Below, piece after piece: positions 1-19,607 of a stretch of DNA of 26,867 bases. The position numbers were made by a program, and so were the translations under genes. Every line of letters starts with the position of its first letter. The first letter of the stretch is position 1. This DNA comes from Pseudovirgaria hyperparasitica. Lineage: Eukaryota. Location of the stretch: the NCBI GenBank assembly GCA_010093815.1, contig ML996579.1. The stretch is one strand, 5' to 3'. Under the pieces are notes generated by a model. The model was not told where the DNA came from. It saw nothing but the letters and a program-made list of their open reading frames with translations, and searched no databases.

Positions 1-810
1 CCACGCCCATAACCATTTGCGCGCTCGTCCCACGGTAGACATTTTCCCTGCGGGCTCAGTACTCCCAGGTTCGATAGTGCGATCACTAGGTCTGGGTTCA
101 TGGACAGGTGGGCGACACATGCAATCGCAATTTTCGCCTCTCCACTGCGGATACTCTGCGCCGCGAGGTGCAGAGCCGCCATACCGCCCGAGCATCCTGT
201 ATCTGTAGTGACGCTGGGCCCGCGCAAGTCGTAGAAGTGCGAAATGCGATTTGAGTACATGGCGGCACCATTGCCAGTGAAGTAAGACGCGGGTAGCGTT
301 TCGGGGTCCTTTATAAGGCGGTCACTATAATCACGGCCGAATGTGCCTGAAAAGACCGAGGTGTTTGAACCGGCCATGCGTTCGAGTGTGTAGCCGGCAT
401 CTTCGAATGCTTCGAATACTCCTTCCATCGAGAGTCTCAGCTGAGGATCCATGGCCTCCGCCGCCTCCGTTGCAACTCCGAAGAATGGCGCGTCGAATGC
501 GCTGATGTCCTCGTCGAGGAAATACCCTCCCTGTACATGATGCTAATTTTCTCATTAGTATCGGTTGATTCATAATATCGATCTCGCTAAGAGTAGGAGT
601 GTGACTTACTCGGTCTAGTCGCTGCTGCTCAGGGTGGTACAAGGACGCACCGTCGAAGCGTGTGGCTGGGATTGGGGACCATGCGTCTGTACCAGAAGAA
701 AGGAGAGTCCAGAGCTTGGATGGTGTGCTTGAAGAACCTGCGAAGCGGCAGCTTAAGCCAGTAATGGCTAATGGGCGAGAAGATGGTGGTTTAGGCGATG
801 GAGGTACCAT
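1..810 (-). CDS. Iterative type I polyketide synthase, reducing (HR-PKS-like), N-terminal KS domain only; gene continues off the left edge. Exons 810-610 and 542-<1
   Basis: ATG at 810 gives MVPPSP..LAITGLSCRFAGSSSTPSKLW. Intron 609-543 has GTAAGT donor, TACTAAT branch and TAG acceptor. Exon 2 reads HHVQGGYFLDEDISAFDAPFF..AMDPQLRL..SNRISHFYDLRGPSVTTDTGCSGG (KS catalytic Cys near 192-194)..WDERANGYGRG. The protein starts directly with KS (no SAT domain), typical of reducing PKSs. Downstream domains are not visible. Confidence 0.93.
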
Positions 811-1126
811 TTTGGACGTTGAAGATTTGTGGAAGTTGAGATGTAGGAACTGGGAGAGAAGAAAGCAGAGAACTGGCTGTTTCAGACTGGGACTGGGCTA
901 CGTGAAGTTAACTTGAATGTTAAGTTGCCATATATGTTGTGTTGCGTACAAGCACTCGTCCATTCACTCACGCTCACACGCACACATACGCGTAGCCAAA
1001 TTACACGCGCGTGCGATGTGAAATTGTTCTTGAAAACATTTGCCCACTCGTATTATTACTTATTTCTACTCAGCGCAAATATCTTCCTCGGGCACATTGC
1101 GAGGATAATATAAGTCTCCAATCCAT

Positions 1127-1200
1127 CGCAAACAGACATGACTACCGCAAATAGACATTACCACCGGAAGCAGACATTCACGTCGCACATACAACCCCTG
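1127..1200. repeat. Degenerate 19-bp tandem repeat (3-4 copies) upstream of the PKS
   Basis: Units start at 1127, 1146, 1165 and 1184: CGCAAACAGACATGACTAC / CGCAAATAGACATTACCAC / CGGAAGCAGACATTCACGT / CGCACATAC. Confidence 0.6.
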
Positions 1201-1295
1201 CCAACTTGCGAAAATACTCCGAGCGCATCCATGTCCACCGCCCACTTTATTAGTGATCTAACAATAATTTCAGGTGCATGAGTCAACATTGTATA

Positions 1296-1348
1296 GTGAA
1301 GAGCCAACATAGCAAGTAAAGAGCTAAAATCGTGGGTGAAGAGCTAAC
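1296..1348. repeat. Three copies of GTRAAGAGCYAA at exact 20-bp spacing upstream of the PKS
   Basis: GTGAAGAGCCAA at 1296, GTAAAGAGCTAA at 1316, GTGAAGAGCTAA at 1336. Confidence 0.6.
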
Positions 1349-2051
1349 CGCGTATCCCTGCACGATCCTCGGAGAATTTTGATAGTATGTATGGCGTGAA
1401 AATTAATCAACCAGAGTGTGGAGAAGAGTTTAAGTTATTAATTCTGCCTGGCCTCGGCAAAAAAAGACGTGGTCCCTGAGGAGAAACTGAGCCACCGGCA
1501 GTTGCAGCGTTGGGAGCGCTGTATGCTGTACACGTGGAGAGATTTCAGGCCCGGCGATACTATCGGAGGTAGCTCCGAACGTAATTGTAGAGCCGGGGAA
1601 ATGTTGTGCCTACCACTGATCTCCAAGTTCAGGTAGCTTCATAATGATATGCCATGAATGCACCGCAATATCGTTCAGTATGGCCGATGGTTTGGGGGAT
1701 GGGGATGAGCGATAGAAGAGCTATTTGTACAGGCTTCTGCTTGTAGGACAACCCCTGGTAGTGTGAGATGCCGCAATCGCATCATGCCTGTATGAGGATT
1801 TTGGGCATCCATATATATGACTTATTGCAGATTTAGTCACACTAAACGTACTGTTGGGGTGGACATTGACTATCCCATGAACAGTATATGTTTTACTGGT
1901 TAGAAGAAGTTACAATGTTATAGGCATTGTAGCTAGTTAAAAGACTACTACAATTGAAGCTGGAAAGCTCTAGTCCTTGCTGGTCATCTATGAAGCTGCA
2001 TATTTGGCTCTGCGTCTGAAAAGTATCAAACTATGTGGCCAAGAAATGATA

Positions 2052-3763
2052 CTAAGCATCCCTTTTCACCTCCCGTAGCTTCAAAGGTAAAGCCGGCTTT
2101 GTCCAGCTCAAATAACTTTTCATGCACCGCATATCATCCTCGGTAGACCATAATCTATTTGACTCCTTCGGATCTGCTAGCTCCGAATCGAAATTCCATA
2201 TAAAGTTGGCAAGAATCAAGCAAAGTTCGAAATAGGCAAGCTGCTTACCAATACAAGCACGGGGACCTACAGAGAATGGCTGTGAAGCTGCCAAATTATC
2301 TCCTGCAAACTGGTCATCCCAATCAGGATGATCGCGTGAAAGCCAGCGCTGTGGGCAAAACTCATTCGGGCGAGCGAAATTGAACTCCATGTGCGTAATG
2401 GCGAAAGATGGCACAGCAACAGTGCATCCTTTAGGTATAGACTCGCCACATATGACAGCACCTCCTATCGGAACTACTCGCTGTTGGCTCACGGCCGCAG
2501 CTGGGACGAGTCTCAAGGTCTCATTGATCGTTGCGTGGAGGTACGGCAGATTGTCCGGCTGGAGATTAGCCCAGCGAATGTCTTCAACCCTCTTGAACTT
2601 GCCACGGATCTCCCCCACCACCCGGCTGTAGACATGTCGGTCTGCATTGATGAAATAGGCCCACGGCGTCAAGGTACTGGCAGTTGTTTCACTGCCTGCA
2701 CTCACGAGTAAAACCATATTGATCATCAGTTCCATGTCTGAAAGGTCTTGCCGGGCCTCTTTGCTCTTAAGCACAAAGTACATTAGATCTTTGTGGTCTC
2801 TATCTCCGTCCTTGATACGTTTCTCGGTCGCCACCTTTGCTTTTTCAAAATGCAAGCGTCGCCATAGTGCTGCGCTCTTTGGAAGAAGTAATTTCTTGAA
2901 GATAGACTCAGCGTAGGTGTCCACTCCAGTCAGTCGTCTTATAGCTTGCTCCCAAGCTCCGCTCACAAAGACATTGATAATTGCGAGTGACCAGTCAGTA
3001 TCAGCTTTTTTGTCGAGGCATCCAAAGGTCTCCCCGAAAGTAAGTTCGCCCATGATATCAAATGTGGTATAGGTGACTATAGCTATCAGCTTTCAATCAA
3101 CATTGAAAGAATACATATCGCCACTTACACCAATGTAGCATGTTTGGGTGCTCGCCCTTGGCCGCGTAATCTTTCATCACTTGCATGAGTTTTTGGACCT
3201 GCCCTAGAATAATTTCTTGTTGGTTTAAGAGCGCGCCAGTCGTGAAAGAATGTCCTAGAGCTCTGCGATGGCGACTATGATCCTTAGTCGCCAGAGGTGC
3301 CATCGTCAATCCAACACTCCCTTGGACCTTTGGAACTGCTCCAATGAAAACTGGATGTTTTTCCATGTTGGAGTTACCACCCTAAGAGGTACGAGTTGGC
3401 TGGAATGTACGCTCATTGTAGATATATGAACACTCACTCTGTCGTAGATATTCTTCCAAGCATCTGAGTTCACAAAACTGAGCTCACTCGGGCCCACTCG
3501 TACAATCGCACCATACTTGCTGTGAAGTTTTCTGTAGTACGCATGCTGGCGACCTGCTGCTAGTGCAACTGCTGCCGGGATTTCGCTCAAGCTATTGAGC
3601 CAGGGGCCAGGGTATTTGCTCAAAGGGTGGAACACTCGTCTCTGCACGATGAACACCACTATCGCAAATGGAATCTGGAGTCTTATCAGTTGATTTCCTG
3701 GGACTCGAGTCACTCCAGAGTACTTACAACGCATAGAAGTAACGATTGAGGAATTAGAACCAT
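2052..3763 (-). CDS. aba2: Cytochrome P450, Aba2-like (C-1' hydroxylase of the fungal ABA pathway), ~516 aa. Exons 3763-3728, 3674-3438, 3381-3129, 3076-2052
   Basis: Three GT-AG introns of 52-56 nt join to 1551 nt in frame. Motifs: HPLSKYPGPW, WFTYTTFDIMGELTFG, I-helix SAGSETTA, ETLR, PQRW, heme FSVGPRACIG. Segments such as GRQHAYYRKLHSKYG, EKHPVFIGAV, WSLAIINVF and NMVLLVSAGSETTAS closely resemble Botrytis BcABA2 as I remember it. Confidence 0.9.
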
Positions 3764-4184
3764 AGTTACGACGATGTAGACGTGTTTGAGCTAGTGATCA
3801 TACCTCGAATAGAGTAAAGGAATACTTGTCGTGATGGATACTTTGGCGCACTTCAGTGACCATCGTATTTATGTCGCATTGTATTAAGGTCAGTCATCAC
3901 ATGATGACATTGAGCATGAATAGGATCGAATGATTTGGTAGAAACGACTCTTGGCCTGGGGCAAACCGCAAAACATTTGTCCGAAGCGCCAGCATCCGTA
4001 AATGACGCCCTAGTCACACCAAATGGTATTTGTCGCCTGATGCTGAATACAGCTTCTACCTCCATGTTGAAATTGAAATTGAATAGTATTTGGCGGCTGT
4101 TGCCGATGAGGAAGAAGAAAATCGATACGACCTGTCATCTTCACCGCGCGACTCTGTGTGTGACCGTCGTATAATCACACAATC

Positions 4185-5666
4185 ATGAAAGCCGAGCTTG
4201 TTGGTCATCATCGCATCTACTCGGAGCATGAGGATGCTTCGAAAAAGACAGCAGTACTACCAGCTATCGATAGCTGGGGTGCTTACTGGAGAACAATTGT
4301 GGCTATATACTTCTTCGAGTCGTACAGCGGTCTGGACGTCTTCAGCGATCTTCGAAAAAGCCTGAGCAGAGCACTAGACAGAGTCCCCCATCTGACTGGT
4401 ACTCTGGAGCCAACATCTATCAAAACAAGCGACGAGCCAGTCCGTACTTTCCGAAGGGTGAAGGTCACATGGGGGTCTGGTACTCCAGGCGGTGAATTGC
4501 TCGAGTGCAAAACAAACGCACGCATCAAGTCGCTCATACCACCTTCTGCTCAAGCGTCAAGCTTTGTGTGGGACCGATCTGATAAAGCACTTGAGGCACT
4601 CTTTCCTAAATGTCTTTCCGAAACGTCAGGACTCCGTATTCAGCTTACCAAATTCACATGTGGAGGCTTCTCAATCGCTATTGATATGGATCATGCCTTG
4701 GCAGATGCATATACAGTCGCATTATTCATAGGGTATTGGTCATCAGTGCATAATCAGATGTTCCCTACTACAGCAGAGCCGTGCCAATCTGCAAAATTGC
4801 CTGATCTCCTGTTCAGCCCCAGCATTGTGGAAGACAAGATACCAAGCGATGGCAAAAAACTTCTGATGCTGGAGAAATCTACTCATCTGCCTACTCGTCG
4901 TCCTGACTTTCGATTTCTATCCGCACCGAACAAGGAAATCATAGTCTCGCGTGATGGGCCTATACCAAATATGAAAAGACCAAACTCAGTCAGCACTCAG
5001 TATCTATTCCACGTCTCGGAGTATGACTATGAGCGGATTACGCGTGGGGTACAGGCCACAGCAGATGTTCAGGTTACAGATCAGATAGCTTTTACTGCTT
5101 TCCTTTGGGCTGCTCTGAATCAAGCGCGACTACACTGCGGACGTCATTCCCTCGATTTGCATCTATCGCTCAGCCTTCGATGGACCCTTGGCCTCCCAGA
5201 AGGACTAGTAGGTAGCCCCTTAGTTGCAGTCATGTTTGACAGCGGAGAGGATCTCCACACCGTTCGCAGAAGACCATCGGTGCTTGCAACAGCCATCACA
5301 GAGACACTTGAAAAGTACACAGAGGACGCTCTTCTTGGTATAGTCTACGACGCGAGTATGCGTGACAGTCCCACCAGCTCCTCGAGGGGTACTGAGAAGA
5401 GCGAGCGTATGGAGCTCACGTCCGGCGTTGGATCTATCTCAAGTGCTCCTATCTTTGGTTCGTGCAGACCATTGTTCATGGCTCCTCCAGCTTTGCCTGT
5501 CGAGAACTTGTTTATCATGGCAGACTGCTTGTCATCTAATGCTGGGACTACTGCGAAACGATATGCCGATGGTTACAATATATTTGTCAGCTTGCCTAGG
5601 GACGTATACTGTAGTCTAATACAGGATCCGGCCTTCAGTGCTTTTGAGGTGCTGGACGATCTCTAG
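4185..5666 (+). CDS. Acyl-CoA-dependent acyltransferase (BAHD/Tri101-like transferase family), 493 aa, intronless; probable counterpart of the accessory transferase in abl-type clusters
   Basis: Long uninterrupted ORF. LRIQLTKFTCGGFSIAIDMDHALADA carries the HxxxD catalytic motif (4692-4706). LRKSLSRALDRVPHLTGTL matches the usual N-terminal signature. The C-terminal DFGWG motif is degenerate (PIFGS). Divergently transcribed from aba2. Confidence 0.85.
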   Translation: MKAELVGHHRIYSEHEDASKKTAVLPAIDSWGAYWRTIVAIYFFESYSGLDVFSDLRKSLSRALDRVPHLTGTLEPTSIKTSDEPVRTFRRVKVTWGSGTPGGELLECKTNARIKSLIPPSAQASSFVWDRSDKALEALFPKCLSETSGLRIQLTKFTCGGFSIAIDMDHALADAYTVALFIGYWSSVHNQMFPTTAEPCQSAKLPDLLFSPSIVEDKIPSDGKKLLMLEKSTHLPTRRPDFRFLSAPNKEIIVSRDGPIPNMKRPNSVSTQYLFHVSEYDYERITRGVQATADVQVTDQIAFTAFLWAALNQARLHCGRHSLDLHLSLSLRWTLGLPEGLVGSPLVAVMFDSGEDLHTVRRRPSVLATAITETLEKYTEDALLGIVYDASMRDSPTSSSRGTEKSERMELTSGVGSISSAPIFGSCRPLFMAPPALPVENLFIMADCLSSNAGTTAKRYADGYNIFVSLPRDVYCSLIQDPAFSAFEVLDDL

Positions 5667-6141
5667 AGGTACTGTTAACTTATATATTCTGTTGAGATCT
5701 CTGATTCTGCGCATCGGGGTGCGACATTATTGAGATACGTTCTACAGTGTAAATGGAGTCTATGTAGTCTTTACACATGATTTGCATAGGGTTAGGAATT
5801 GAGTTAGGCAGATTCTTAGTGTGCATATCATAGGTTAGGTGGAGAAATGAGAAGAGACTGTCTCATGAAAAAGAGATACCAATACAAGTCTCTAACCATT
5901 GAATTCATCGACCGGAGTGCTCTAGCTATTCACGAAAATTCTATCTGATACATATTTTAGATTCATAGTTCCAAGGTAAAGCAGTTTGTATACAATGGTG
6001 GAATTGTAGAAAGTGGACTCGAGTAAGGGAAGTAGGAAGGTCATTTCACAATTTTCATATCGCGCACAAACTAATAGCTTGAATAGCCAACAATCGAGTC
6101 AATACTCTAACGCAAACGCTATTGACCGTGAGAAGTGCCTG

Positions 6142-7518
6142 CTAAGTTTGCGAGAAGACTTCATTAAGCTCTGGGAAGATGAGCGCAGCTCTTTCATGGA
6201 GCGTATCCAGATGTGCTGACCAGGTGCTCCGACAGGACAGACAAAGCACAACACCTCCAAACCGACCATGTGCTTCTGCACCATAGTAATCTCGAAAATT
6301 ACAGCTGGAGCAGTTCTGGTCGCTTTCAAGGTAGCCACAAAGCCCAGGAAACATGTATATCTCACTTCCGGTGGACACAAGATGACGAAAACGATCCTCG
6401 TCCTTCATCCGTTCGTCATCAGAGTCAACCCTGTACCAAAGCTTACGATTCTTCCTGGCTTGATCAACAACATCTCGAGTTTCAGAGCGTCCGATTGTGA
6501 GTTCTTCCTCAACAAATCTGTATCGTCTCATCATTATATGGATGGGACCTCCAAAGAAACGCACAAAATTTAGAACGGGTGTGTACTCAGCTCTTCTAGA
6601 GAGGGCCACATCAAGGGCCCATAGGACCTCTCGAGCCTGATGGAAGGCGGTTATGCGCTTGTCCGACGGCATATAGGCGAATGTGCTGTTAGTTTCCCCC
6701 TCGCTCCGATGTTTGAAGAATGCTACTGCATCATAGAGGGTGTCTCCAATCTCTGTGAGGATCTCGTACTCGCCATCTGACAACTTCACACTGTCAAGAT
6801 CATTACAAGCCAGTGCGGAGGCTATAGTAAATCGGGCCAGGGCGTCTGCGTCCCTCATTCTGAACCCTGGCGAGGGGAGCGAGCAAGCGCATTCACATAT
6901 CGCCGAAAGAGGACACCATTGCGGCGGTTGCTCGACTTGTCTGCAGTTATCAGCAGGAACGACCTATATTCACGGCACATATTTTCACTGTTGGGTTCAA
7001 AAGTCAGTTATGGCTCTAATAGCGGGTGGAGCTCTTACTAGTCTGCCGTCCCGGCGAACAGATCGTCGAGAACTTCTTGAAGATTATATCCTAGAATATT
7101 GTCTCCTGCTGTTACATCGACTAGGCTTCCTTTGAACTCTGCAATAACACCCATGATGATGATCCGCATGAATGCGATGTACCGCTTCCAATTTGTGTAT
7201 TGCGGAATAACACATCGAGTATACTCCCATGCACAAGCGAAGACTTCTTGTTTGACAACAGTCGACATGTTGAGACTCTCCAGGTCATTGGCAATCTCGC
7301 TGGGATAGTACCACTTATTCTTTGGAGTGAGCTTGTCAGGCTTCTGTATAGGCTCATGTCCAAGATTTGGGCTTTGGTGATTCTCGATAGAGCTGACAAA
7401 GTTTGACGTATACTGCGTGGATGAATAAGCAAATGTTATCGAGCTTTATATTAGTTGAAAGATGACAAACCGCTTGCCAAAGTACCCCCACCTGTTTGAG
7501 AATGTCAATTCCAAACAT
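6142..7518 (-). pseudogene. aba3: Aba3-like alpha-ionylideneethane synthase (non-canonical sesquiterpene cyclase), frameshifted as written; ~415 aa if one base is restored at 6866/6867. Exons ~7518-7492 (tentative), 7412-7039, 6987-6142
   Basis: WYYPSEIANDL..FACAWEYTRCVIPQYTNWKRYIAFMR..IAEFKG, then REYRSFLLITADK..LFRRYVNALA, then MRDADALARFTIASALACNDLD..IGDTLYDAVAFFKHRSEGETNSTFAY..RFFGGPIHIMMRRYRFVEE and C-terminal CSSC..CLSC. These blocks match BcABA3 as I recall it. Intron 7038-6988 has GTAAGA/CTGAC/CAG signals. Exons sum to 1247 nt, not a multiple of 3; CAG GG TTC AGA ATG stands where CAG TGG TTC AGA ATG (QWFRM) is expected. Family assignment is confident; pseudogene versus sequencing error is unresolved. 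Confidence 0.88.
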
Positions 7519-8415
7519 TGAAAGGTCTATGATTATGATTTTCACTATCTATAATCGTCGTGTTGAGTGTAATCTTGGATATCGAGTGGAAATCAGAGGG
7601 TTGCACAACGTATTATCATAGTAAGTTATTGTTTCCAACCTTTGTAGTAAAGCCAAAGAAGGCGACTTCCACGTGCATCTTCAAAAGTTTACGGCTCCTG
7701 CAAGCAAGTCCCTGTAATAAAGCCCATGAACCATTAGCGCAATATTTTCTCACATTGGCAAGGGTGAATTTGTGCGGTAGAGAACTTTACCAGACCGTAG
7801 TAGCCTTGCCTTAATTATGGGAGGCATTCTAAAGGGGACGCTCAAACTTTACTATAATTACTTCGAATGAAAGTAAGCCACACTACTTTACAACCATTAA
7901 TAAATTTAATTCGGGTCCTTGGGAAAAGAAGTGGGTTTGACTTAGAAAGATATTCGCAAGTCGATAATACATTTAGATTGCTGTGTTCTCAAGACGCTAA
8001 ACCGCTACAAGCTGGCCATGGAGCCATGTTAGGTGACCCACTCTCAAAGACCCGAATAGGGGGTTCGGGTGAATTGTCGTGATGAGTCCCGGGATAACTC
8101 TGCATGAGAGACTGAAATTGATTGGCTCCAGGGTACGCACTTCACTTATACCCAAATATTGGCGTTCAATTGATTTGCCGATGCCAGTCAAAGTGTTTGA
8201 AATGCCCGGCGGATGAAAGAAAATCACCTCACATGAGAGCTGCATACGGCTCAGCCTACACAGGAAGCCAGCGAATGAGGTGATTGAAATGGAGGTAGCG
8301 GGATTCTATCTGATGTAAGCCTGTCTACCAGTAGACGATATGAGATGAATGCTTTCTAGATTGTGCCTGATTCGAAGTCTGAGGAATATCTGACAGTGTC
8401 TACTAGCTAAGAGAC

Positions 8416-10214
8416 ATGACATTCAACCCGACGTACAGCCTTCGAACCATGGGCTCTTCTCCGTCTATCACTGAGCAGGAGGTTAGATCTGGAAGTCATA
8501 GTCTTATCTTGATCATCGTCGCAGCTAGCTTTCTAATCTGGCTCCTCTTCTCCGGTGTCTGGTCCTACCGCCGTCTATGTCACATTCCGACTCCTTCAAG
8601 ACTCGCTGGCCTATCGTACCTCTGGTTAGGATATATTACCTGGAGTGGAAAGCAATACTGGGTTCATCGCGATCTACATAAAAAATATGGTCCCTTGGTC
8701 CGCATTGGTCCAAATGAGGTGATGACAGATGATCCTGAGATTCTGAAGAAGGTTGCATCGACAAATAGCACCTACCGCAGAGCAGAATGGTATCTGACGG
8801 GAAGGTTCAACCCCTACTTCGATAACTTGTTCACTATTCTTGATCCAATCCCACACCAGAAGGCCAAACAACGTTCTATGCCAGCTTACTTGGGGAGAGA
8901 GACACCTGGATTGGATGTTATCATTAACGACAAGGTGAAACTTCTCATTAAAGTACTGTGTGACCGACATTTGACTTCTGATCCCGGGCAAAATCCGCCA
9001 CTTGTCAATCTAGGAGTGATTACGAACTATTTTACGATGGATGTTATTACACACCTCGGGTTTGGTCACGAAACAGGATATCTCCGAGACGATCAAGACC
9101 ATTATCGCTTTCTTGAAGGTGTACGCAGACTCTGGCCTCAAATGTCGACTGTTTCTGAGGTCCCTTGGATGCGTAGGGCCCTGTTCTCGACCCCAATGCT
9201 AAAGCTGTTCGGTCCAAAACACACAGACAAAGAGGGTTTCGGGGCGCTCATGGGGTGAGTAGTTCGATTCTATGTATACTGCGGCTAGACTAACATCCAA
9301 GTGCTGCTCGCGAACATGTTAATCGCCGATTCGAGTTGGGAGAGGGAAAGAAAAGTGACATGCTGGTATGATCTGTTTGTAACGTGAAGTAGTCTGATAT
9401 TCACCAAGGACGTCACAGGAAACATTTATCAAGCTAGGGTTCAATCGCCAGGAGTGCGAGTCTGAAGGGCTCTTTCTCCTGCTATCTGGCACTGAAAGTA
9501 CGGCATGTGCTATGCGCCAGATCTTAGTCCACGCCATTACTGCCCCAGCGATATACGATATGGTAAAGGAAGAGATCATGCGTGCCTGTCGCGAAGGGTC
9601 GGTGTCCTATCCCATCACCATGGTGGAGGCCAAGAAGCTTCCTTGTCTCCAGGTACCTTAAACTATCACATGAAACACCAAGAGTATGCTTACAGGTAGT
9701 ACAGGCCATCATCTATGAAGGCATTCGAATGCGACCACCTTTGCTTGGAACTTTTCCCAAGGTTGTTCCATCCTCTGGCGAAACGTTTCATGGCCACTTC
9801 ATCCCAGCAGGGACGTCGATTTGCACCAACGGGTCATCATTGTTGCGCTCCAAGACTCTATTCGGGAACGATGCCGAGGTGTATAACCCCATGCGATTCA
9901 TTCATCTAGAAAAATCCAAACGTGAAGAGATGGAGCGTAACGTGGAGCTTACGTTTGGTTATGGACAATGGATGTGCGCCGGCAAGACAATCGCTTTCAT
10001 GGAAATGAACAAAGTAATATTCGAGGCAAGTTAGCAGGATCATGAATCTTACTGCGAACTGACCGTGTCCGATTAGTTACTCCGTCACTTTAACATTCAG
10101 TTGGTCGACCCGTTGAAGCCCTGTGATGTAAAGAGCTATGGAGTGTTCCTTGAACCCAATCTTTATGTGCGCATTACAAAAGATCAGAACGTATCTTTAG
10201 GAGTGAAAGCATGA
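8416..10214 (+). CDS. aba1: Cytochrome P450, Aba1-like, ~520-531 aa. Exons 8416 (or 8449)-9254, 9302-9365, 9419-9652, 9705-10025, 10077-10214; last intron is GC-AG
   Basis: N-terminal TM anchor, then SGKQYWVHRDLHKKYGPLVRIGP..TDDPEI..WYLTGRFNPY, nearly identical to BcABA1 as I remember it. I-helix LSGTESTA, EGIR, heme FGYGQWMCAG. Exons join to 1596 nt in frame. Divergent from aba3. Confidence 0.9.
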
Positions 10215-11077
10215 ACTAGTCAGGGGGGCGACGGTTGCACTTTCTCTGCGTTTTGAGCCTACTTTTTGCCTTGCGAACGTAAAGCTCGATCAGAGCACAT
10301 GTACTTAGGTGAATAGGTACCAATTCATGTCCATGTTCGATACTGCAGAATGTCGCAAACTTTGAGCTACTCGATGCAGAATCGTGTTTCTCATAATGCC
10401 CTTGAACAATGACATCAAGAATCGTTGTCAGCCGACTGCCTCAGATGAATGTGAGACCAATTAAGCAGCTATTAGCCCATTGGATCACACAAACATCTAA
10501 AGTTTTCCACCTTTACCGTGATATGAAGGCAAGCATGTCGCCAATGCTTTGCTAGGGCTAACGAACATGTCCTAATTACTTGGTAAGCCGGAGAAACATT
10601 ATTGTTAATAAAGTAACGACGTGATATCAAGCAGTTCCTAGCGCATCGACCTAACCTCGGTCTTTCTTCCACAAACCATAATAATACAGATAATGAGCTC
10701 TACCGATTCATGAGTGCTCCGGCTAAATTATAATCCCTGTCGGAGAAACTTCTAGCTCTTACTATTTAGGTTCCATCTAGCTACCGATTGGCAGCGTATA
10801 GTAAGGGCAGCTAATGATTGGACGTGTGTTGTGGGGAGCCTCGCTATAGGTTTGGCTGATATTATTATCATTAATTTTGCACAAGATACTTGGCTGCGGA
10901 AGCTTCATTCGATTTTGGTGATGTGCACTATCATGTACATGAAAATTCGTATTATGCCGTCACATATATTATGCGTCGAGTGGCCTATATGAGATAGAGC
11001 ACCGTACACCGATAGACTCACCACGGCACCGATTTCCAAGGAATACATCTTCTAAGTTGCTGCTCCAGAAAATAGAT

Positions 11078-12835
11078 ATGGCTAAGCCATCCCTTCTATC
11101 CAAGCTTCTTCCGCTACTACTGATTAATATAATTGGTAGCGTGTTTCTGAAGAAATACCACAGCAGCAACGACGCAGGAAGCGCCGTGAACCCTCTCTTG
11201 ATACAAGTTGCTGTCAACCTATCCGTATGGATCTCCTACAAGACCTTCATCTATCCCCGCTTTCTCAGTCGCCTCAGGTCACTACCGACAGCTAAAGTGG
11301 GTAAAAGAACAGTACGTGGAACTTGTTAATGCAGCTGATAGTGATCTCAGAGAACACTACCATTCATTGGCTATGGGCCTGTCCAATTCGCCGATGCCCG
11401 CGGTGAAACATTATTGAAAATGTCCGACACAGTGCCAAACAAAGGCTTGGTTCGGTTTCACGGATTTATGGAAAGCGAATGCCTCCTACTCACGAGTCCA
11501 GAAGCCACTCAAGAAGTACTTGTTCAAAAGTCATATGATTGGATCAAGCCGCCAGCGGCGAAAAAGTTGCTCGAATGGTGGTTCAAAACCGATTTGCTTT
11601 TTTCAACTGAAGGTGCTCGTCACCGTGAGATGAAGAAGAACATGACAGCATTCTTCAGTCTTGCGAAGGTGAAGGTCTTGTACCCACTTCTGTGGGAGAG
11701 GGCTCTTAAGATGGCCGATGAAATTGAACGTGCCGCCAAACTTGACACTTGCAAGAGCGGGACAGTTGATATCAAGCAGTTTGTATGGCAGCATACACTT
11801 GATACTACCAGGCGTACCATCTTTGGGGAGCAGATAGAGAAGTCTCCCCGTAGATATGAGATCATGAAGCTACAAGGATCGGTTTTGGGTACCACCTGGG
11901 ACATGAGAGTCTATTACGCTTTGAATGCCTTCTTGCCGAGGTGGACTGTGAACTTGATTCCCGGTGGTATCAGCGAGAGGGTCAAAAGCTCAAGCGAGGA
12001 TTTGACAAAGGCTATTAGCTCATTCATAAAAGAGGTGGAGTCAGAGACGTACTCAGCAAGTCTGCCTGGAATAGCTGTTCAAATGTCTCAAGCAGGATTT
12101 TTCACTGATGACGAGCTGGTAGCCAACATGTTAGGAATTGTCATTGCAGCGTAAGTCAATTTCACTAACATCGCATACGAACCTAATCCCACGCCACACA
12201 GAGTCGAGCCAACTGCAGCTGCCTTCCTTTGGGTTATATATTATCTATCGAAATATCCCGAGTGGCAAACAAAGGTCCGCGATGAGATGAAAACAAAGAT
12301 ACCATACTCAAGTGCCATTGGACAAACCGAAGTTGTCAACGTCGCCGATACATTTGAAAGCCTTACATATCTAGACGCTGTTTGTAACGAAGCACTACGA
12401 CTAATGCCAACAAACCCTACAACCAATCGTATTGCCAAGGATGACACAACGATACTAGGCCAGTATGTTCCCGCTGGGACAAAGGTCTTCGTCTCTTCAT
12501 ACGTTCTTGATCGCCACCCTCAGATCTGGGGTCCCACAGCTCGGGAATATAACCCGGGCCGCTGGCTGGAGAAGCGCCCGAACGAAAGGCTTGAAAAGCG
12601 TACTGGAGTGGCAACAAGCTCCCACGCGGGATTCTTACCTTTCTTACATGGGTCGCGCAAGTGTATTGGCTTCATGTATGCCCAGGCTGATATTCGCTCA
12701 CTCGTGGCGTCTCTTGTTGGGCGATTCGAGTTTGAGATGGCGGATCTTAATGAGAAAATCATTCCGGCTGGCGTACTTTCGAGCGCGCCCAAAAACGGTT
12801 TGAACATTCGCATTAAGAGAGTAGAGGCATGGTAG
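11078..12835 (+). CDS. Third cytochrome P450 (accessory, abl5-like by context), ~550 aa. Exons 11078-11296, 11351-12150, 12202-12835
   Basis: Hydrophobic N-terminus; two GT-AG introns (54 and 51 nt) join to 1653 nt in frame. Motifs: YLDAVCNEALR (ExxR), YNPGRW, heme PFLHGSRKCIG. The I-helix reads IAAVEPTA. Confidence 0.9.
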
Positions 12836-13220
12836 CATATTCGCGCAGTATGTCCGACATATCGGACAGCGATTTCTCAATGCTATACAGTTTCGATGGA
12901 ACGTGCGGATCGTGCATATAGTTCTCTCTGGTAGAGTAGCTAAATGTGGCTTAAGTTTTAAACTTGGCTTTCCATATATATGATGTGCCATTTCTCCGGA
13001 ACATTGAAGTATATTATGTAAACCTTTTGTCCGAAATGCTATCGTTGAAGTCCCAAATCTCCTGCAACGCCGAAACTTTTTGGCACTATAGGCAGTATTC
13101 TAGCCTTCTAGCATGACAATATGCTGTTCCCAAGACTATACAGCAGCGTTCTGGCACAAAAGCAAAATTGACTGTAAAAGTTCCCAAGTGGGACGAACGA
13201 TGCTCTCTTGTGGGCCGGAA

Positions 13221-15237
13221 TCAGACCAACCCGGCCTCTTCTGTCTTTATTGAATCGAGGAACAACCTGGCTGAGACATTGATGCTTCTCAGCCCATGTA
13301 ACGCATCCAATAGTATTCCTAGGTTGAGTTGGGATTTATCCACAGTCTCAATCGCATGCTGGTATTGACTTGCCTGGATATATCGCACCGCGGAAATCAA
13401 TGTAACTGGCATAAACATAGAACTCTGCAATAGTGTTAGATTGTCGCGCCAGGATCTCTAAACACGCGTCGATAAAAAACGTAGTAAGACACAAGAGAAT
13501 AATAGGACGCTAGTCAAGCAACACTGTAGATAGAGCTCAAGAGCTACCGGGTGTCAAATGTGTCTTCTAGTGGAACTAGACAGTCTACTCACTTTGAAGT
13601 TGGTAGGACACTGGTGGTGTGCAGAACACTGTGCTATTTCCGCTGCTGCTGCATGAGCTCGCCGTAAAGCCCTCTCCTTCACTTCCTGTTCTTCCATACT
13701 CTGTGCAGGAACACTGTCTATAGTCTCAGCGAGATGGATCGGCAGTAAGTGCGCAAACGAACGGGAGAAGATCTGCATAGGATCTTCGCTTGGCAATTCC
13801 TTAGTGCCTGGGGCATCGATACATCTTATACACTCCTCAGCAGCGTTGGAAAGCCATTCGTGTCGCGCTCGTATATCATTGATTCTCTTGAATTGAGGTT
13901 GAGTTCCATGGACCAGGCGTCGATGGGTAAGACACCGACCGTACAAGGTTGCCACCGTGACACACTGGGCAAATGGCGATAAGTTAACCGTGGTCAGATC
14001 GCTCATCAGCTCGGTTAGACAACCCATCTGGATCTGCACCGAACTTTGAAACCAGAGATCTGGTACTGGCAAGCGCAGTCGTATCTGTGCAAGCGTGATG
14101 AACTATCTCCCGGTCAACAACAGCGTAGGGCAGGGCTCACCGTTTCTTCATGCAAGGCCCAAGACATATCGTCTTTCTGGTGTAGAAGGCGATCAAAACA
14201 AAAAGCAAGCCAAAATGTACGTCTTTTCTCTTCTAGTTGGCTCAGTGCGTCATCTTGCGCTGAATGGCTAGAGGCATCCAGCTCGCCAAGGCGAGATCTT
14301 TGAACAAGACGAAGTGCCCGGGATACTGCGTATGCAGTCTGGCGATCTTCCTTGTGCATCCACTCATATACTCCGAGTAGAAGCCAGGCTTGAATCCTTT
14401 CTATTCTAATCTGCTCTGTAGGCCATGGCAGCCCATCATCACAATCATCTAAGCTTTCCAAATATTGAATGGCTTCGTGGTAAAGGAGCTCGCCAATGCT
14501 TTCATACTGTGCGGAGAAAGCGGCAGCGGATGCACGCATAGCTAGTCGAAGGCTGTTGCAAGCTGGGGGAGGGTCCTTTTGACTTGCCCACAATAGATAA
14601 TGATGCTTATGAATGATTGGTGCAGATGGATATACGCGATCGAAGAAAAGCTGTTCTCTAATATGAAGACATCAGATCCCAGATCGCAACTTTCGAATCA
14701 ACTTACAAGTCCATCAGGATAAGTGGTGATAGATGCGAGCCACTCTTCAACATCTGATAATCGGGTATTGGTATGGGCAGGAATAATGTCTCGAGTTGCA
14801 TTGCACTCGGTTCCGCACACATAGGCCCTTCCTGTGAGAGGTCATTAAACATATTGTCTAATAGTAGCATATCGGTCCCTGAAGTGTCAGTGTCGGTTGT
14901 ACCGAGGGATCCGCAGCTTATATCCGGTGAAGTGCCTTGCGTGCCCTGGGGAAGATCGTGCGACTGTGGCCGTCTAGCAAGTTGTCCCTCGAGTAAAGCT
15001 TCAGAATAGTTTCAGTTACCCGTCGCTCCTGGAAGGACGAAGTTTTTGTAGTTTACCTATCCGGTCCCTTAGCGCCTGGAGTTGCCCCTTCTTAGGACCA
15101 CGCTTTTTGCTATCGTGATATACACAAGCCGTGCCGGCCTCGTGGCATGCACCACACTCTGGTCTGACACGATCACATTTTGTCTTACGGCGTCTACACT
15201 GCCCGCAAGATAGGTGTTGGCTCTGTGTCAAAGACAT
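13221..15237 (-). CDS. Zn(II)2Cys6 transcription factor with fungal-specific TF middle domain, ~561 aa; likely the cluster-specific activator (abl7-like by context). Exons 15237-15057, 14998-14707, 14657-14141, 14084-13593, 13424-13221
   Basis: CGQCRRRKTKCDRVRPECGACHEAGTAC is C-x2-C-x6-C-x6-C-x2-C-x6-C, followed by KRGPKKGQLQALRDRI. Middle region: LFFDRVYPSAPIIH, IQAWLLLGVYE, EEKRRTFWLAFCFDR, LRLPVPD. Four GT-AG introns give 1686 nt in frame. The last exon is the least certain. Confidence 0.88.
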
Positions 15238-17359
15238 TTCTTGGTAGTTGAACGGACTCTGAGTTGTTTGGTCGATGGACAACGGCTAAGTTCGATTGCT
15301 TTAATATGAGACAAAGAGGCATGTTAGTTAGGACCTCGATTCGGATCGCCTTCATCAACAGCCTATAAGAAACCCAGTCATGTATAAGGACGTCAGACCA
15401 TGCTTCATTAGTAGTGGCAGTGAAGAATGCAACGACGTAAATCCGTTCACACCACTCTTTAGCTAAACACAATGCACTTGATTGATCTTTGCACGAGGAC
15501 ATGCTTGCTGCGACTCTATGTAGACTATTTCGTCACTGCATTAAGTTTTTGACTTATCCAGTCATTACGTGTTGCCTTGTGCCTTCGGATGTGTCTACGG
15601 TAGACCATCGCTTGCTATGCACGCTAGGGCTCAGGGTCATAGTGCCCCCGCCCGCTACAGTCAGTACACAGGGAAGATGCTTCTAAAATGTTACTCGTGG
15701 TGTTTGACGAGAAAGTTGATAACAAGCCGCGAGAGCTGGGGCCGATACGCATGAAGGTACTCTGCTCATTGAGGTAACTAGAGCGGTACGAGACTGTGGC
15801 ATGATTAGCTGTAGGCTTCATAGAATGAGGACTTAGCCGATACATGGCATGGGTAAATATGTGTGATTGGCAACTTGCAGTTATGAGATTCATGGCTGGG
15901 TGCTATGGTTTGTGATCTGTGGAATCCCCAGCCGTTCAAGTTTACCGTTGTTTCAGGATAAGCATGATATCATTCGTCGTAATTGGACCCCACAGTCTCG
16001 AACTTCCAAGCATCGTTGAAGGTCTTCCTTAGCCTTCATCAATAAGATAAATCAAGGTGGTGTTACTATAGGACTTTAAGCTTACTCGGGTTCGCCCGAT
16101 CTGTTGGGTTATCGACTGCCTATTGTTTCGGCACTGGAACGAGGATGCGATCTTGATGGCGTGAAGAATTATAACCACTTAATTCGACCTACCGGAGCAA
16201 GTTATGTAATCGGATGCGATGCACTTCGGCCTTGTCGGACCGAAGCTAGGCCTGGTCTATGAACGGCCCCACGGCACTTACGCCAAAATTAGGTTTACAA
16301 TTAACAGCCCGTGGGGTTTGGAACCGAATTCGGGATAAGTTCGTTTTCGGTTAGATACGGATAGGATACGCGCCGAAGTGTATCATGCCTGGTTTTAGTG
16401 CCAATGTCCCGTCAGCCCACATAGACTGATCCACTTACCTACGAGATACTTCCATAGCTCGTAGTAATCTAGACGTTTAGCGTCCATACCTATGATAGTT
16501 ACTAGAATTCTTACTCTCCCGTTCTAATAAAGAGGTTCTATCTAATTAATTTTCCTACGTAAGAGTCCTTATACATAAGGTGGATGCTATGTCGACTATC
16601 TCGGCTACGCTCTCTTAAGAGAGTAGTATAACTATCTAAATAGAAATAGGACCTAAAAAGATTCGAGATCATGACCTAATGGATAGGAACGAATGTGAGT
16701 GGCCTAAGTAAAGTAGGAAAATGGTCCTAGCATACATCGATATGTATTATGCCCACCGTATTTACCAAAGACTATCGTCTTTCTATAGAACGTGCGGATA
16801 GTATTAGACCGTTTTTCGCCGTTAACCTACTTATATATATAGTAAACTACTTCCTAGTATATTAGCTATGTACACGACGGGCCGATGCCATGATTAAGCG
16901 TGGAGATTCCCCTACAACCCCACGGTAATTAGACCCACGATCCGTCGGGCTCAAATGCATCGAACACTTTCAGCGCGACTCTTAGTAATCCCTCCGTAAC
17001 CTTTTCTACGTAACCCTTAGCACGTGTTACGCGCGTAATAGATACATTTTCTCTTATTCTTTAAAGATTTATATCTTCTCTAATAACTCTATTATAAAGA
17101 CTATCATGAAGGAGCCGTTCTTTCGATATACGAAAGAACGTGGCACGGGCCTATAGAGGAGCCATGCACGACTCTTGGCATGAAAAACGAGTAATCGAAA
17201 GAACACCTAAGGCAGAGTCGAAAGGCAGCCCTTCCCATGCCTGCACTATCACAAAACTTAGTAATAATACTTATCTATATATAAACTTATGTCCTTTCGA
17301 AAACGAAGTTAAACGGCCTAGTATTAGTAAAGATATAGGCTGGTGAAAAGGATGACTTT

Positions 17360-18110
17360 TTTGAAGTTCTGGTTTTGATGGGGTACTAGCTTAGAATCGG
17401 GGCTCGGCGTTTAGTAAGGAACACCAGAACCCCTCCAGAACCTCTATGTAAAACAAGCCACACCCGGCTATTAATAATGGCTGCACTCTCTCGAAATTTT
17501 AGAATAATACTCTTCTTTCGATTCTACTATGGGTATACTAAGAAAGTAAAAAGATATCTCCTCTCGTTCTATTTATAAAGAGGCGTCGAAGTTTGAAGAT
17601 TTTGGTAAGTGAGACTTCGATGGGGTACTAGCTCGGCACTAAAACCAGGGTCCACACAGTCGACTTTCCATAGAATACTACCACTTTTTACATAAGATAA
17701 GCCACACACGGCCATTAGTAATGGCTGCACTCTCTCGAAATTTTAGAGTAATATTCGTCTTTCGATTCTATTATAGGTATACTAAGAAACTTAAAGGATA
17801 CCTCTTCTCCTTCTATTTATAAAGAGCCGTCGAAGTTAAAGATTACCTTATACTTATATTCTAATAGGGTGCTACCTCTTTAGACTACTTAAATTCTAAT
17901 ATAAGATAAGCTATATATACCTATTAATAATAGCTGCACTCTTATAAAATTTTAGAATAATACTCTTCTTATAATTCTACTATAGGTATACTAAGAAACT
18001 TAAAAGATATCTCTTCTCCTTATATTAATAAAGAGCTATTAAAGTTTAAAGATTCTACTATATAAGACTTTAATGGGGTACTAGCTCGGCGCTAAATCTA
18101 GGGTCCTTCC
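17360..18110. repeat. Tandem array of ~3.3 copies of a ~210-245 bp unit, RIP-diverged
   Basis: Anchor GATGGGGTACTAGC-like sequence recurs near 17377, 17618, 17863 and 18073. The block AAGCCACAC..AATGGCTGCACTCTCTCGAAATTTTAGA..GGTATACTAAGAAA..ATAAAGAG..GAAGTT recurs near 17455, 17699 and 17909. Confidence 0.9.
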
Positions 18111-18700
18111 TAATATGGCTAGACTATATTTCCGACGGCCCTTCCGTTGGAAACCCTCTACTATTAATATTATTAAGTCTTCTATAGTACTCTCTCTTTA
18201 AACTAGACTAATTATAAGAAATATAAGTATATAGACTTAGTCTATACTACTAGATCTATCTATTATTAGACTTATAAGATATAAGATATATATATTAACT
18301 AGCTATAGAGTATATATATCTATTATAATAGATATAACTAAAGTATTACTATACTAGTAAATGAAGATATATTATAATTTAACTTAAGAAGTAAAGATAA
18401 ATCTATATAGATTATAGCTTAAGTATATAGATTAAATAAGATTATATAATATCTCTATACTAGTTCTATCTATTCTAGCTCTATTAAATAATACTTAAGA
18501 TAGAATAAAGCTAAAGTCTATAATATACTCTTATTCTCTAGAGTTTTATTTATATATTAGTTCTATAATTAGAGAAGATATATTTCTATTATAGTATATC
18601 TAGTTATATAATAATAGAGTAGTCTATTACTTCTATTATAATATATAAGATATATAAAAAGTAATAAGATCTTCTCTCTAATATAGTAGATCTAGTTATA

Positions 18701-19607
18701 TATTAGGTACGTGCCTACTAGTTAATTATATATGTATATAGTAGTCGTATATAAGTAGTATACTCCACCCTTAAAGTAGTAGCTTTAAGATTCGGTCCTT
18801 TTAGTATAGTTAGTTAGTATATAGAGCCNNNNNNNNNNNNNNNNNNNNNNNNNNNNNNNNNNNNNNNNNNNNNNNNNNNNNNNNNNNNNNNNNNNNNNNN
18901 NNNNNNNNNNNNNNNNNNNNNNNNNNNNNNNNNNNNNNNNNNNNNNNNNNNNNNNNNNNNNNNNNNNNNNNNNNNNNNNNNNNNNNNNNNNNNNNNNNNN
19001 NNNNNNNNNNNNNNNNNNNNNNNNNNNNNNNNNNNNNNNNNNNNNNNNNNNNNNNNNNNNNNNNNNNNNNNNNNNNNNNNNNNNNNNNNNNNNNNNNNNN
19101 NNNNNNNNNNNNNNNNNNNNNNNNNNNNNNNNNNNNNNNNNNNNNNNNNNNNNNNNNNNNNNNNNNNNNNNNNNNNNNNNNNNNNNNNNNNNNNNNNNNN
19201 NNNNNNNNNNNNNNNNNNNNNNNNNNNNNNNNNNNNNNNNNNNNNNNNNNNNNNNNNNNNNNNNNNNNNNNNNNNNNNNNNNNNNNNNNNNNNNNNNNTT
19301 TAGCTTACCACGTTATATATACTTTATATACGTGACGGATAATATGGTAGTAACGTTACTACGGTAAGTTAGCGTATCTAGTACTAGAGGCGGCATTATA
19401 AATATTAATTATATGCACATGGTTTATACTAGGCCTAGTATAACTAGCGCGTATACTAGGCCTATTATAGCTAGTTTAGTTTATCTTTTATAAGGTAGAT
19501 ACCTATAACGTGTAAGGGTACGCGCCTTTAAAAAGGGGAGATATTATTAGGCACGTGCCTACTAGTTAATTATACATGTATATAGTAGTTATATATAAGT
19601 AGTATAC
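18701..19607 (+). mobile_element. Small LTR-bounded element (possibly TRIM-like/non-autonomous), RIPed, spanning the gap; 3' LTR interrupted at 19608
   Basis: Direct repeat TATTAGG(T/C)ACGTGCCTACTAGTTAATTATA..TAAGTAGTATAC at 18701-18763 and 19545-19607, with TA probably RIPed from TG. The second copy is preceded by a polypurine tract AAAAAGGGGAGA (19530-19541). Confidence 0.6.
18829..19298. other. Assembly gap (470 N)
   Basis: Run of N. Confidence 1.

What the first reader, a model, noticed from the sequence alone, without database searches (positions are those of the whole stretch)
6855..6872. Single-base deletion frameshifts the committed-step cyclase aba3
On the minus strand the upstream frame reads ..AAT GCG CTT GCT CGC TCC CCT CGC CAG GGT TCA GAA TGA (NALARSPRQGSE*, stop at 6857-6855), while the conserved continuation FRMRDADALARF is in another frame. 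Inserting one T between 6867 and 6866 restores Q-W-F-R-M, matching the SPRHWFRMRD I recall for BcABA3. The truncated product would lose the whole C-terminal half, including RRYR and both CxxC pairs. Both halves are otherwise undecayed and the neighbouring genes are intact, so this is a very recent knockout of the whole pathway or an assembly error. Gene callers would split the gene in two.
Basis: partly seen in the sequence, partly recalled or inferred. Interest (0 to 1): 0.75.

Follow-up and report, generated by a model that had tools for sequence, protein, structure and literature searches.

The report
Frameshifted aba3 terpene cyclase, masked by annotation
In the rust-hyperparasitic fungus Pseudovirgaria hyperparasitica, the cyclase gene that would start abscisic-acid-type terpene synthesis has lost one base and is cut in half, and the public annotation hides this behind an invented intron.

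Summary
On the minus strand the aba3/abl3-type cyclase reads ...SPRQGSE* (stop 6857-6855). The conserved continuation FRMRD... runs in the -1 frame from 6864 to the stop at 6144-6142. Against 81 full-length homologs the break is exactly one column, Trp198 of BcABA3, so one base is missing.

The window is Pseudovirgaria hyperparasitica (100% hit), an Illumina/AllPaths-LG assembly. Contigs rebuilt independently from two DNA runs of the same sample (word depth 338 and 261) match 14.8 kb with 0 differences and 0 gaps. An assembler error is therefore very unlikely.

Gene callers did not split the gene. The deposited 375-aa model bridges the break with a 50-nt GT..AG "intron" (6916-6867). It drops 17 residues that all 81 homologs have, and it lacks a consensus 5' splice site and a branch site.

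Everything else looks undecayed: 102 of 102 near-invariant columns and 15 of 16 residues named in the structure paper are kept. The aba1-type and abl5-type P450 neighbours look whole.

Most likely this is a recent, real loss-of-function mutation. It is ordinary biology, with an annotation lesson. The 5' end may carry a second lesion; this was not tested.

The parts
6866..6867 (-). Site of the missing base: between 6867 (last base of the Gln codon CAG) and 6866 (GG remnant of the Trp198-equivalent codon)
   Evidence: The break is exactly one alignment column (W in 75 of 81 homologs). The frame changes from -1 to -3 here.
6855..6857 (-). Premature stop TGA of the upstream frame. It overlaps ATG 6858-6856, the Met201-equivalent codon of the downstream frame.
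6867..6987 (-). Exon 2, upstream frame (YENMCREYRSFLLITADKSSNRRNGVLFRRYVNALARSPRQ)
   Evidence: It aligns to BcABA3 up to residue 197.
6142..6864 (-). Exon 2, downstream frame. 240 codons from FRMRD to the natural stop. Encodes R202, L207, Y242, H250, F302, R312/Y313 and the four Zn-binding Cys (BcABA3 numbering).
   Evidence: E = 3e-93 to PDB 8ZAC chain A (BcABA3).
6867..6916 (-). 50-nt GT..AG 'intron' of the deposited gene model. It is in fact conserved coding sequence (VLFRRYVNALARSPRQ) plus the break.
   Evidence: these exons reproduce P0001 exactly; 81 of 81 homologs have residues in all 17 skipped columns; 5' site GTGTCC, no CTRAY branch site.
6988..7038 (-). Genuine-looking intron 1 (51 nt, GTAAGA..CTGAC at -20..CAG)
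7039..7331 (-). Exon with the conserved WYYP..DL start of the core, Y96, I117 and E124 (Mg2+-binding Glu)
7332..7678 (-). Annotated 13-codon first exon (7678-7640) and 308-nt intron (7639-7332, GTTGGA..CTGACAAG). This 5' structure is doubtful. It contains ATG 7357-7355, which is one base out of frame with WYYP.
   Evidence: No RNA cover.
8497..10181 (+). aba1-type cytochrome P450, transcribed divergently from aba3
   Evidence: the best full-length relative, P0164, is named 'Cytochrome P450 monooxygenase aba1 [Paramyrothecium foliicola]'; it covers P0164 residues 15-521 of 522, except about 22 residues between two aligned pieces.
11078..12832 (+). abl5-type cytochrome P450 (annotated P0121, 555 aa), with an RNA-supported 51-nt intron at 12151-12201
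   Evidence: 49% identity to 'Cytochrome P450 monooxygenase abl5 [Plenodomus lingam]'.
12985..15285 (-). Zn2Cys6 / Fungal_trans transcription factor gene, with a 168-nt intron at 13425-13592
4164..5666 (+). Transferase-family (PF02458) ORF, 500 codons from stop to stop
2052..3797 (-). Third cytochrome P450. Orthology to aba2 was not established.
3..897 (-). N-terminal ketosynthase part of a polyketide synthase gene that runs off the window

Best explanation
The gene is the ABA3/Abl3-type sesquiterpene cyclase (alpha-ionylideneethane synthase family) of Pseudovirgaria hyperparasitica. It sits in a cluster with an aba1-type P450, an abl5-type P450 and a Zn2Cys6 regulator. In the sequenced strain, one base of the Trp198-equivalent codon is truly absent from the DNA. 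Translation from the N-terminal half ends three codons later, at TGA 6857-6855. The product has the Mg2+-binding Glu but lacks every pyrophosphate-binding residue (R202, Y242, H250, R312/Y313) and the Zn-Cys4 loop, so it cannot cyclise farnesyl diphosphate. The mutation is young, because nothing else in the gene has decayed. The deposited 375-aa protein is an annotation artefact: a gene caller bridged the frameshift with a 50-nt GT..AG pseudo-intron.

Shown: the frameshift, its presence in the reads, the mismatch between the model and the family, and the intact conserved residues.
Inferred: loss of enzyme activity, loss of the cluster's product, and the recency of the mutation.
For: - Frameshift. 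The break is exactly one column in 81 homologs.
- Present in the reads: one Logan contig from each of two DNA runs (word depth 337.9 and 260.8) spans window 1200-16000 with 0 other letters and 0 gaps. The assembly is Illumina HiSeq (2x150 from 270-bp fragments, 2x100 from a 5.8-kb library) with AllPathsLG (PMC7082219, Supplementary Table 5). The missing base is not in a run of its own kind.
- Family and residues: E = 3e-93 to PDB 8ZAC. 15 of 16 residues named in PMC11695735 are identical; the exception, I121V, is at a site the paper calls not strictly conserved. 102 of 102 columns conserved in at least 95% of sequences are kept, 33 upstream and 69 downstream; homologs keep 93-102, median 101.
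- Need for the C-terminal half: Ala substitution of the PPi- and Mg2+-binding residues gave very low activity and no product, H250A excepted, and a natural C-terminally short BcABA3-S is inactive (PMC11695735, section 5 parts 1-2).
- Pseudo-intron: it skips 17 columns occupied in 81 of 81 homologs. Its 5' site is GTGTCC and it has no CTRAY. The gene's first intron and three RNA-supported introns in the window have GTAAGA, GTAAGT, GTGAGT or GTACGT, and each has a CTRAY motif near its 3' end. 15 GT..AG pairs of 40-121 nt could bridge the break with an open frame, so finding one means little.
- Cluster context.
Against: - Both DNA runs come from the same sample as the assembly, so they exclude an assembler error but not a mutation private to that culture. 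Contigs also drop minority variants.
- No RNA contig covers the gene, so splicing of 6916-6867 was not observed either way.
- An undecayed gene with a single lesion is also what a sequencing artefact would look like.
- No whole genome was available to exclude an intact second copy.
- ABA or any other cluster product has never been measured here.
Confidence: 0.85

Rival explanations
1. Sequencing or assembly error: the true genome has the extra base and the gene is intact (392 aa with the annotated start).
For: The rest of the gene is flawless and the neighbours look intact. The window is a scaffolded draft with an N gap.
Against: Contigs rebuilt by another method from two separate runs, at word depth 338 and 261, agree with the window over 14.8 kb with 0 differences and 0 gaps. 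The platform is Illumina, where single-base deletions outside homopolymers are rare (general knowledge). A high-depth alternative would have displaced the deleted form.
Confidence: 0.04
2. The annotated 50-nt intron (6916-6867) is really spliced. A stretch of coding sequence was 'intronised' and rescues the frame, giving a 375-aa protein that lacks 17 residues.
For: GT..AG ends and a length of 50 nt, similar to the real 51-nt introns in the window. The deposited model uses it.
Against: The 5' site GTGTCC lacks the G at +5 seen in all four comparison introns, and there is no CTRAY branch site. The 'intron' still encodes, in frame, 16 residues that match the family; for example F184 is F in 80 of 81, L191 is L in 81 of 81 and P195 is P in 80 of 81. 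81 of 81 homologs have no gap there. 15 alternative GT..AG bridges exist. Deleting 17 conserved residues just before the essential R202 would probably wreck the active site (inference).
Confidence: 0.04
3. Translational recoding. Either a -1 ribosomal slip at CAG-GGT gives a full-length protein with Gly for Trp198, or termination-reinitiation at the overlapping ATGA (6858-6855) gives two half-proteins that assemble.
For: The stop TGA overlaps the ATG of the conserved Met201 codon. A Gly-tRNA on GGT could re-pair with GGG one base back (inference).
Against: There is no X_XXY_YYZ slippery heptamer (sequence view). The 93 nt downstream fold no better than shuffles (z = 0.28; 118 of 200 shuffles fold at least as well). 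Reinitiation after a long ORF of about 150 codons or more is inefficient in eukaryotes (general knowledge). Position 198 is aromatic in 81 of 81 homologs.
Confidence: 0.02

Closest known systems
BcABA3 of Botrytis cinerea (alpha-ionylideneethane synthase; PDB 8ZAC; P0014)
   Same: Same family. The C-terminal half matches 8ZAC at E = 3e-93 and is 61% identical. E124, R202, Y242, H250, R312/Y313 and the four Zn-binding Cys are all encoded. The conserved WYYP start of the core is present.
   Different: The reading frame is broken at the Trp198 codon. The N-terminal extension is short or unclear. Enzyme product not tested.
Abl3 and the abl cluster of Plenodomus lingam (Leptosphaeria maculans) (P0003, P0122)
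   Same: Closest named relative of the cyclase: 69% identity over the alignment, 66%. The window also holds an abl5-type P450 (49% identity) and a Zn2Cys6 regulator beside it.
   Different: The gene content of the L. maculans cluster is recalled (Darma et al. 2019). That paper was not found or read here. No aba4/abl4-type dehydrogenase is seen in the window. The cyclase here is frameshifted.
BcABA3-S, a natural C-terminally short variant of BcABA3
   Same: A natural allele that lacks C-terminal sequence and makes no product, as reported in PMC11695735 citing Takino et al..
   Different: That variant lacks only the 3'-terminal region. Here everything after residue 197 is lost.
Gene-model pseudo-introns that mask frameshifts in automated eukaryotic annotation
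   Same: A short GT..AG 'intron' of length 3n+2 placed exactly over a frameshift, deleting conserved residues.
   Different: Nothing unusual. This is a textbook case.

Membership tests
ABA3-type terpenoid cyclase (BcABA3 family) | Significant sequence similarity to solved ABA3 structures | tested here: met
   8zac_A E = 3e-93, 8zad_A 3.2e-93, bacterial 8zaf_A 2.2e-43, for the 240-aa C-terminal half; the N-terminal half matches P0003 residues 51-185.
ABA3-type terpenoid cyclase (BcABA3 family) | Strictly conserved Mg2+-coordinating Glu (E124) in place of Asp-rich motifs | tested here: met
   Glu in the window and in 81 of 81 homologs.
ABA3-type terpenoid cyclase (BcABA3 family) | PPi-binding R202, Y242, H250 and the RY pair R312/Y313 | tested here: met
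   all five are encoded and identical. However, they lie downstream of the frameshift, so they are not joined to the N-terminal half.
ABA3-type terpenoid cyclase (BcABA3 family) | Four-Cys Zn2+ site (C384, C387, C407, C410) | tested here: met
   all four Cys are encoded, downstream of the break.
ABA3-type terpenoid cyclase (BcABA3 family) | One continuous reading frame through the core | tested here: not met
   frame -1 changes to frame -3 at 6867/6866, with a stop at 6857-6855.
ABA3-type terpenoid cyclase (BcABA3 family) | Converts FPP to (2Z,4E)-alpha-ionylideneethane | not testable with these tools
   Needs an enzyme assay. The bacterial member SkABA3 makes a different product (PMC11695735), so family membership alone does not give the product.
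Fungal abscisic acid gene cluster (aba1-4 / abl) | aba1-type P450 next to the cyclase | tested here: met
   the best full-length relatives are named aba1 / BcABA1 by their sources (47% and 37% identity). The gene covers residues 15-521 of 522.
Fungal abscisic acid gene cluster (aba1-4 / abl) | aba2-type P450 | tested here: inconclusive
   A third P450 lies at 2052-3797. The Atlas gave only generic P450 names. No aba2 sequence was on hand.
Fungal abscisic acid gene cluster (aba1-4 / abl) | aba4-type short-chain dehydrogenase | tested here: not met
   No such ORF appears among the ORFs of the window. It may lie elsewhere. Bcaba4 is reported as not essential in B. cinerea (PMC9920419, passages).
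Fungal abscisic acid gene cluster (aba1-4 / abl) | The organism produces ABA | not testable with these tools
   No chemistry available. No paper on ABA in this species appears among the 15 listed of 21 papers that name it (listing only).
Spliceosomal intron (the annotated 6916-6867) | GT..AG ends and plausible length | tested here: met
   50 nt, GT..AG.
Spliceosomal intron (the annotated 6916-6867) | Consensus 5' site (G at +5) and a CTRAY branch site | tested here: not met
   GTGTCC and no CTRAY. All four comparison introns in the window have both.
Spliceosomal intron (the annotated 6916-6867) | Splice joint seen in RNA | not testable with these tools
   the RNA-like contigs do not cover the gene.

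The most novel reading that the evidence does not exclude
The break is not a dead end. Either the 50-nt stretch 6916-6867 has become a functional intron that rescues the frame (coding sequence turned into an intron after a frameshift), or the overlapping stop-start ATGA lets the cell make the cyclase as two half-proteins that assemble. In either case the cluster would still work in this rust hyperparasite.
Probability: 0.05. Interest if true: 0.6.

Novelty: new member of a known kind. Interest (0 to 1): 0.25.

Why it matters
First, it corrects a public protein record. The 375-aa 'hypothetical protein' of P. hyperparasitica is not a natural ABA3 variant with a 17-residue deletion. It is a frameshifted gene patched by a gene caller. 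Anyone who uses that sequence for family alignments, genome mining or expression would be misled.

Second, it gives a dated snapshot of a secondary-metabolite cluster that has just lost its committed step while its tailoring P450s and regulator remain whole. The organism is a mycoparasite of rust fungi whose closest cyclase relatives are in plant pathogens. If the deletion is fixed in the species, it would fit loss of a plant-directed hormone pathway after a change of lifestyle. If it is private to the culture, it is a caution about type-strain genomes.

Neither outcome is surprising to a specialist.

Tried and rejected
- RNA evidence: no RNA holder was listed for the gene. The two RNA-like runs X3 and X4 cover only about 9.1-16 kb of the stretch and not aba3. 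Nothing can be said on expression or splicing.
- Own-genome search for a second aba3 copy, aba2 or aba4: no genome is held for this window.
- Earlier findings of the scan: none for this genome.
- Naming the two other P450s through the protein Atlas gave only generic P450 clusters.
- Searching with the N-terminal part of the abl5-type P450 against longer proteins returned only the self hit.
- Literature on the L. maculans abl cluster and on aba3 pseudogenes: no relevant paper was found in the library. What I say about that cluster's content is recalled.
- Programmed frameshift: no slippery heptamer, and no unusual downstream structure (z = 0.28).
- Start at the first in-frame ATG (the Met of ..LNMSTVV..): rejected as the native start. 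It lies after the WYYP..DL segment, which is present in 79 of 81 homologs (W in 74, P in 78, D and L in 80 each), and two out-of-frame ATGs precede it.

Full report
**What is in the sequence.** On the minus strand the gene has three parts.
- An exon carries the conserved core start (..KNKWYYPSEIANDL..) and runs to 7039.
- A 51-nt intron follows (7038-6988) with good signals: GTAAGA, CTGAC 20 nt from its 3' end, CAG.
- A second exon starts at 6987.

The second exon reads ...ITADKSSNRRNGVLFRRYVNALARSPRQ, then GSE, then stops at TGA 6857-6855. The frame one base back reads FRMRDADALARFTIAS... from 6864 and stays open for 240 codons, to the natural stop at 6144-6142.

tblastn with Plenodomus lingam Abl3 (P0003) places residues 51-185 in frame -1 (7322-6867) and residues 183-424 in frame -3 (6876-6151). 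I aligned 81 homologs of 370 aa or more, chosen from the 120 best of 353 hits; shorter, mostly metagenomic fragments and the window's own model were left out. In that alignment the break occupies exactly one column. That column is Trp in 75, Tyr in 3 and Phe in 3 of 81. Two bases of that codon remain, so exactly one base is missing.

**Where the window comes from.** The C-terminal half is 100% identical to 'hypothetical protein EJ05DRAFT_494378 [Pseudovirgaria hyperparasitica]' (P0001, 375 aa). The species is a Dothideomycete of the Acrospermales. It is described as a mycoparasite of rust sori (PMC3317363, abstract in the listing; PMC7082219, passages).

**Real base loss or error?**
- The species' assembly was made from Illumina HiSeq reads (2x150 from 270-bp fragments, 2x100 from a 5.8-kb library) with AllPathsLG (PMC7082219, Supplementary Table 5).
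- Two DNA runs, X1 and X2, each give a single Logan contig that spans window 1200-16000 with 0 other letters and 0 gaps, at word depths 337.9 and 260.8.
- Both runs are from one sample that may be the assembly's own source, so they are not independent isolates. They are, however, an independent reconstruction from the reads.
- A base present in the reads at such depth could not have been lost in both runs. The assembly-error alternative is therefore very unlikely (about 4%).
- What stays open is whether the deletion is fixed in the species or private to the sequenced culture. Contigs would also hide a minority allele.

**What the annotation did.** They did not.
- The exons 7678-7640, 7331-7039, 6987-6917 and 6866-6142 reproduce P0001 exactly.
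- The model removes 6916-6867 as a 50-nt GT..AG intron. Its length, 3n+2, moves the frame back.
- The price is 17 columns (BcABA3 182-198) that are occupied in 81 of 81 homologs. They include positions such as F184 (80 of 81), L191 (81 of 81) and P195 (80 of 81), and the window still encodes them in frame.
- The 'intron' begins GTGTCC and has no CTRAY branch motif.
- For comparison, the gene's first intron and three RNA-supported introns in the window (12151-12201, 13425-13592, 14217-14421) begin GTAAGA, GTAAGT, GTGAGT and GTACGT, and each has a CTRAY motif near its 3' end.
- Fifteen different GT..AG pairs of 40-121 nt would bridge the break and keep the frame open. The existence of one is therefore no evidence of splicing.
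- I conclude that the intron is an artefact. RNA could not be consulted, because the RNA-like contigs do not cover the gene.

**What the gene is, and what the break does.**
- The C-terminal half matches the crystal structure of BcABA3 (8ZAC) at E = 3e-93.
- The structure paper (PMC11695735; outline and results parts 1-2 read) names these residues: Y96, I117, I121, E124 (the Mg2+ ligand), F167, R202, L207, Y242, H250, F302, the RY pair R312/Y313, and four Zn-binding cysteines.
- These numbers fit P0014. 15 of the 16 are identical in the window. The exception, I121V, is at a position the paper calls not strictly conserved.
- The break lies four codons before R202. The N-terminal product ends at the equivalent of residue 197 plus three foreign residues. 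It is 154 aa with the annotated start (my count from the coordinates).
- It keeps E124 but loses every pyrophosphate-binding residue and the Zn loop.
- According to the paper, Ala substitution of the PPi- and Mg2+-binding residues gave very low activity and no product, H250A excepted. A natural C-terminally short BcABA3-S is also inactive.
- Loss of function is therefore a strong inference, though it was not measured.

**How old is the mutation?** Read through with X at the break, the gene keeps 102 of 102 columns that are conserved in at least 95% of the 81 homologs: 33 upstream and 69 downstream. The homologs themselves keep 93-102, with a median of 101. The 240 out-of-frame codons have no stop. 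As a rough inference, if about 2.25 non-synonymous sites per codon drifted freely, no hit in 102 such codons bounds the neutral divergence since the deletion at roughly 1.3% (95% level). The mutation is young and could even have arisen in culture.

**Context.**
- The P450 transcribed divergently from the cyclase (8497-10181) is aba1-type. Its best full-length relatives are named 'Cytochrome P450 monooxygenase aba1 [Paramyrothecium foliicola]' and 'BcABA1...' by their sources. The window covers residues 15-521 of 522 of the former, with about 22 residues falling between two aligned pieces.
- The next P450 (11078-12832, annotated P0121) is 49% identical to 'abl5' of Plenodomus lingam.
- A Zn2Cys6 / Fungal_trans regulator follows on the minus strand.
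- To the left lie a Transferase-family ORF, a third P450 and the start of a polyketide synthase.
- No short-chain dehydrogenase (aba4 type) is in the window, and an aba2 orthologue was not identified.
- In B. cinerea, aba1, aba2 and aba3 are essential for ABA, and aba4 contributes (PMC9920419, passages).
- Family members can make other products; the bacterial SkABA3 does.
- So 'ABA pathway' is the best reading for this cluster, but it is not proven, and 'knockout of the whole pathway' remains an inference. No genome was available to look for a second cyclase copy.

**A possible second lesion.** The WYYP..DL segment is part of the conserved core: it is present in 79 of 81 homologs, with W in 74, P in 78, and D and L in 80 each. 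The native start must therefore lie upstream of it. Between the upstream stop (7448-7446) and WYYP there is no in-frame ATG. The nearest ATG (7357-7355) lies 44 nt before the Trp codon. That distance is close to the median N-terminal length of 14 residues in homologs, but it is one base out of frame. A TATAAA lies near 7452. The deposited model instead takes its start from a 13-codon exon at 7678-7640 and a 308-nt intron with a weak 5' site (GTTGGA), whose nearest CTRAY motif starts 8 nt from its 3' end. This may be a second patched defect, or it may be a real 5' intron. I could not test it.

**Rivals.**
- Sequencing error: about 4%.
- A truly spliced rescue intron: about 4%.
- Recoding by a -1 slip, or reinitiation at the overlapping ATGA: about 2%. 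There is no slippery heptamer, and the downstream RNA folds no better than shuffles (z = 0.28).

**Verdict.** This is a real single-base frameshift in an otherwise pristine ABA3-family cyclase gene, hidden in the public record by a pseudo-intron. It is a new instance of a well-known kind of event, the inactivation of a cluster's core gene, with modest scientific interest. Its practical value is as an annotation correction and as a pointer to test whether this rust hyperparasite has just lost an ABA-type pathway. I found no report of it: none of the 15 titles listed, of 21 papers that name the species, concerns ABA, and the aba3 pseudogene/frameshift search gave nothing relevant. Both were seen as listings only.

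Noticed in passing
window 13997-14645: RNA-like contigs of runs X3 and X4 carry a GT..AG joint 14216->14422 (205 nt) on the plus strand. It lies inside the minus-strand Zn2Cys6 / Fungal_trans regulator gene, whose own intron at 13425-13592 reads CT..AC on the plus strand. This looks like a spliced antisense transcript over the cluster's regulator.
   Followed up: partly
window 7311-7678: The 5' end of the cyclase gene has no in-frame ATG before the conserved WYYP. The nearest ATG (7357-7355) is one base out of frame, at the distance typical of homolog N-termini. The deposited model borrows a start from a 13-codon exon and a 308-nt intron with weak signals. This may be a second frameshift.
   Followed up: partly
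window 6855-6858: The premature stop TGA overlaps the ATG of the conserved Met201-equivalent codon of the downstream frame (ATGA). This is probably a coincidence of the conserved FRMRD codons.
   Followed up: partly
window 17000-26867: An AT-rich block (GC 20-39%) with a run of N at about 18.8-19.3 kb starts right after the cluster. It is repeat- or RIP-like, and the cluster sits at its edge.
   Followed up: no
window 3-5666: A polyketide synthase (KS domain, running off the window), a further P450 and a Transferase-family ORF lie directly left of the cyclase. It was not examined whether they belong to the same cluster.
   Followed up: no
hits: Close ABA3 homologs (53-57% identity to the query half) are recorded from actinobacteria (Amycolatopsis, Umezawaea, Streptomyces) among the fungal hits. 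This agrees with the bacterial members described in PMC11695735.
   Followed up: no
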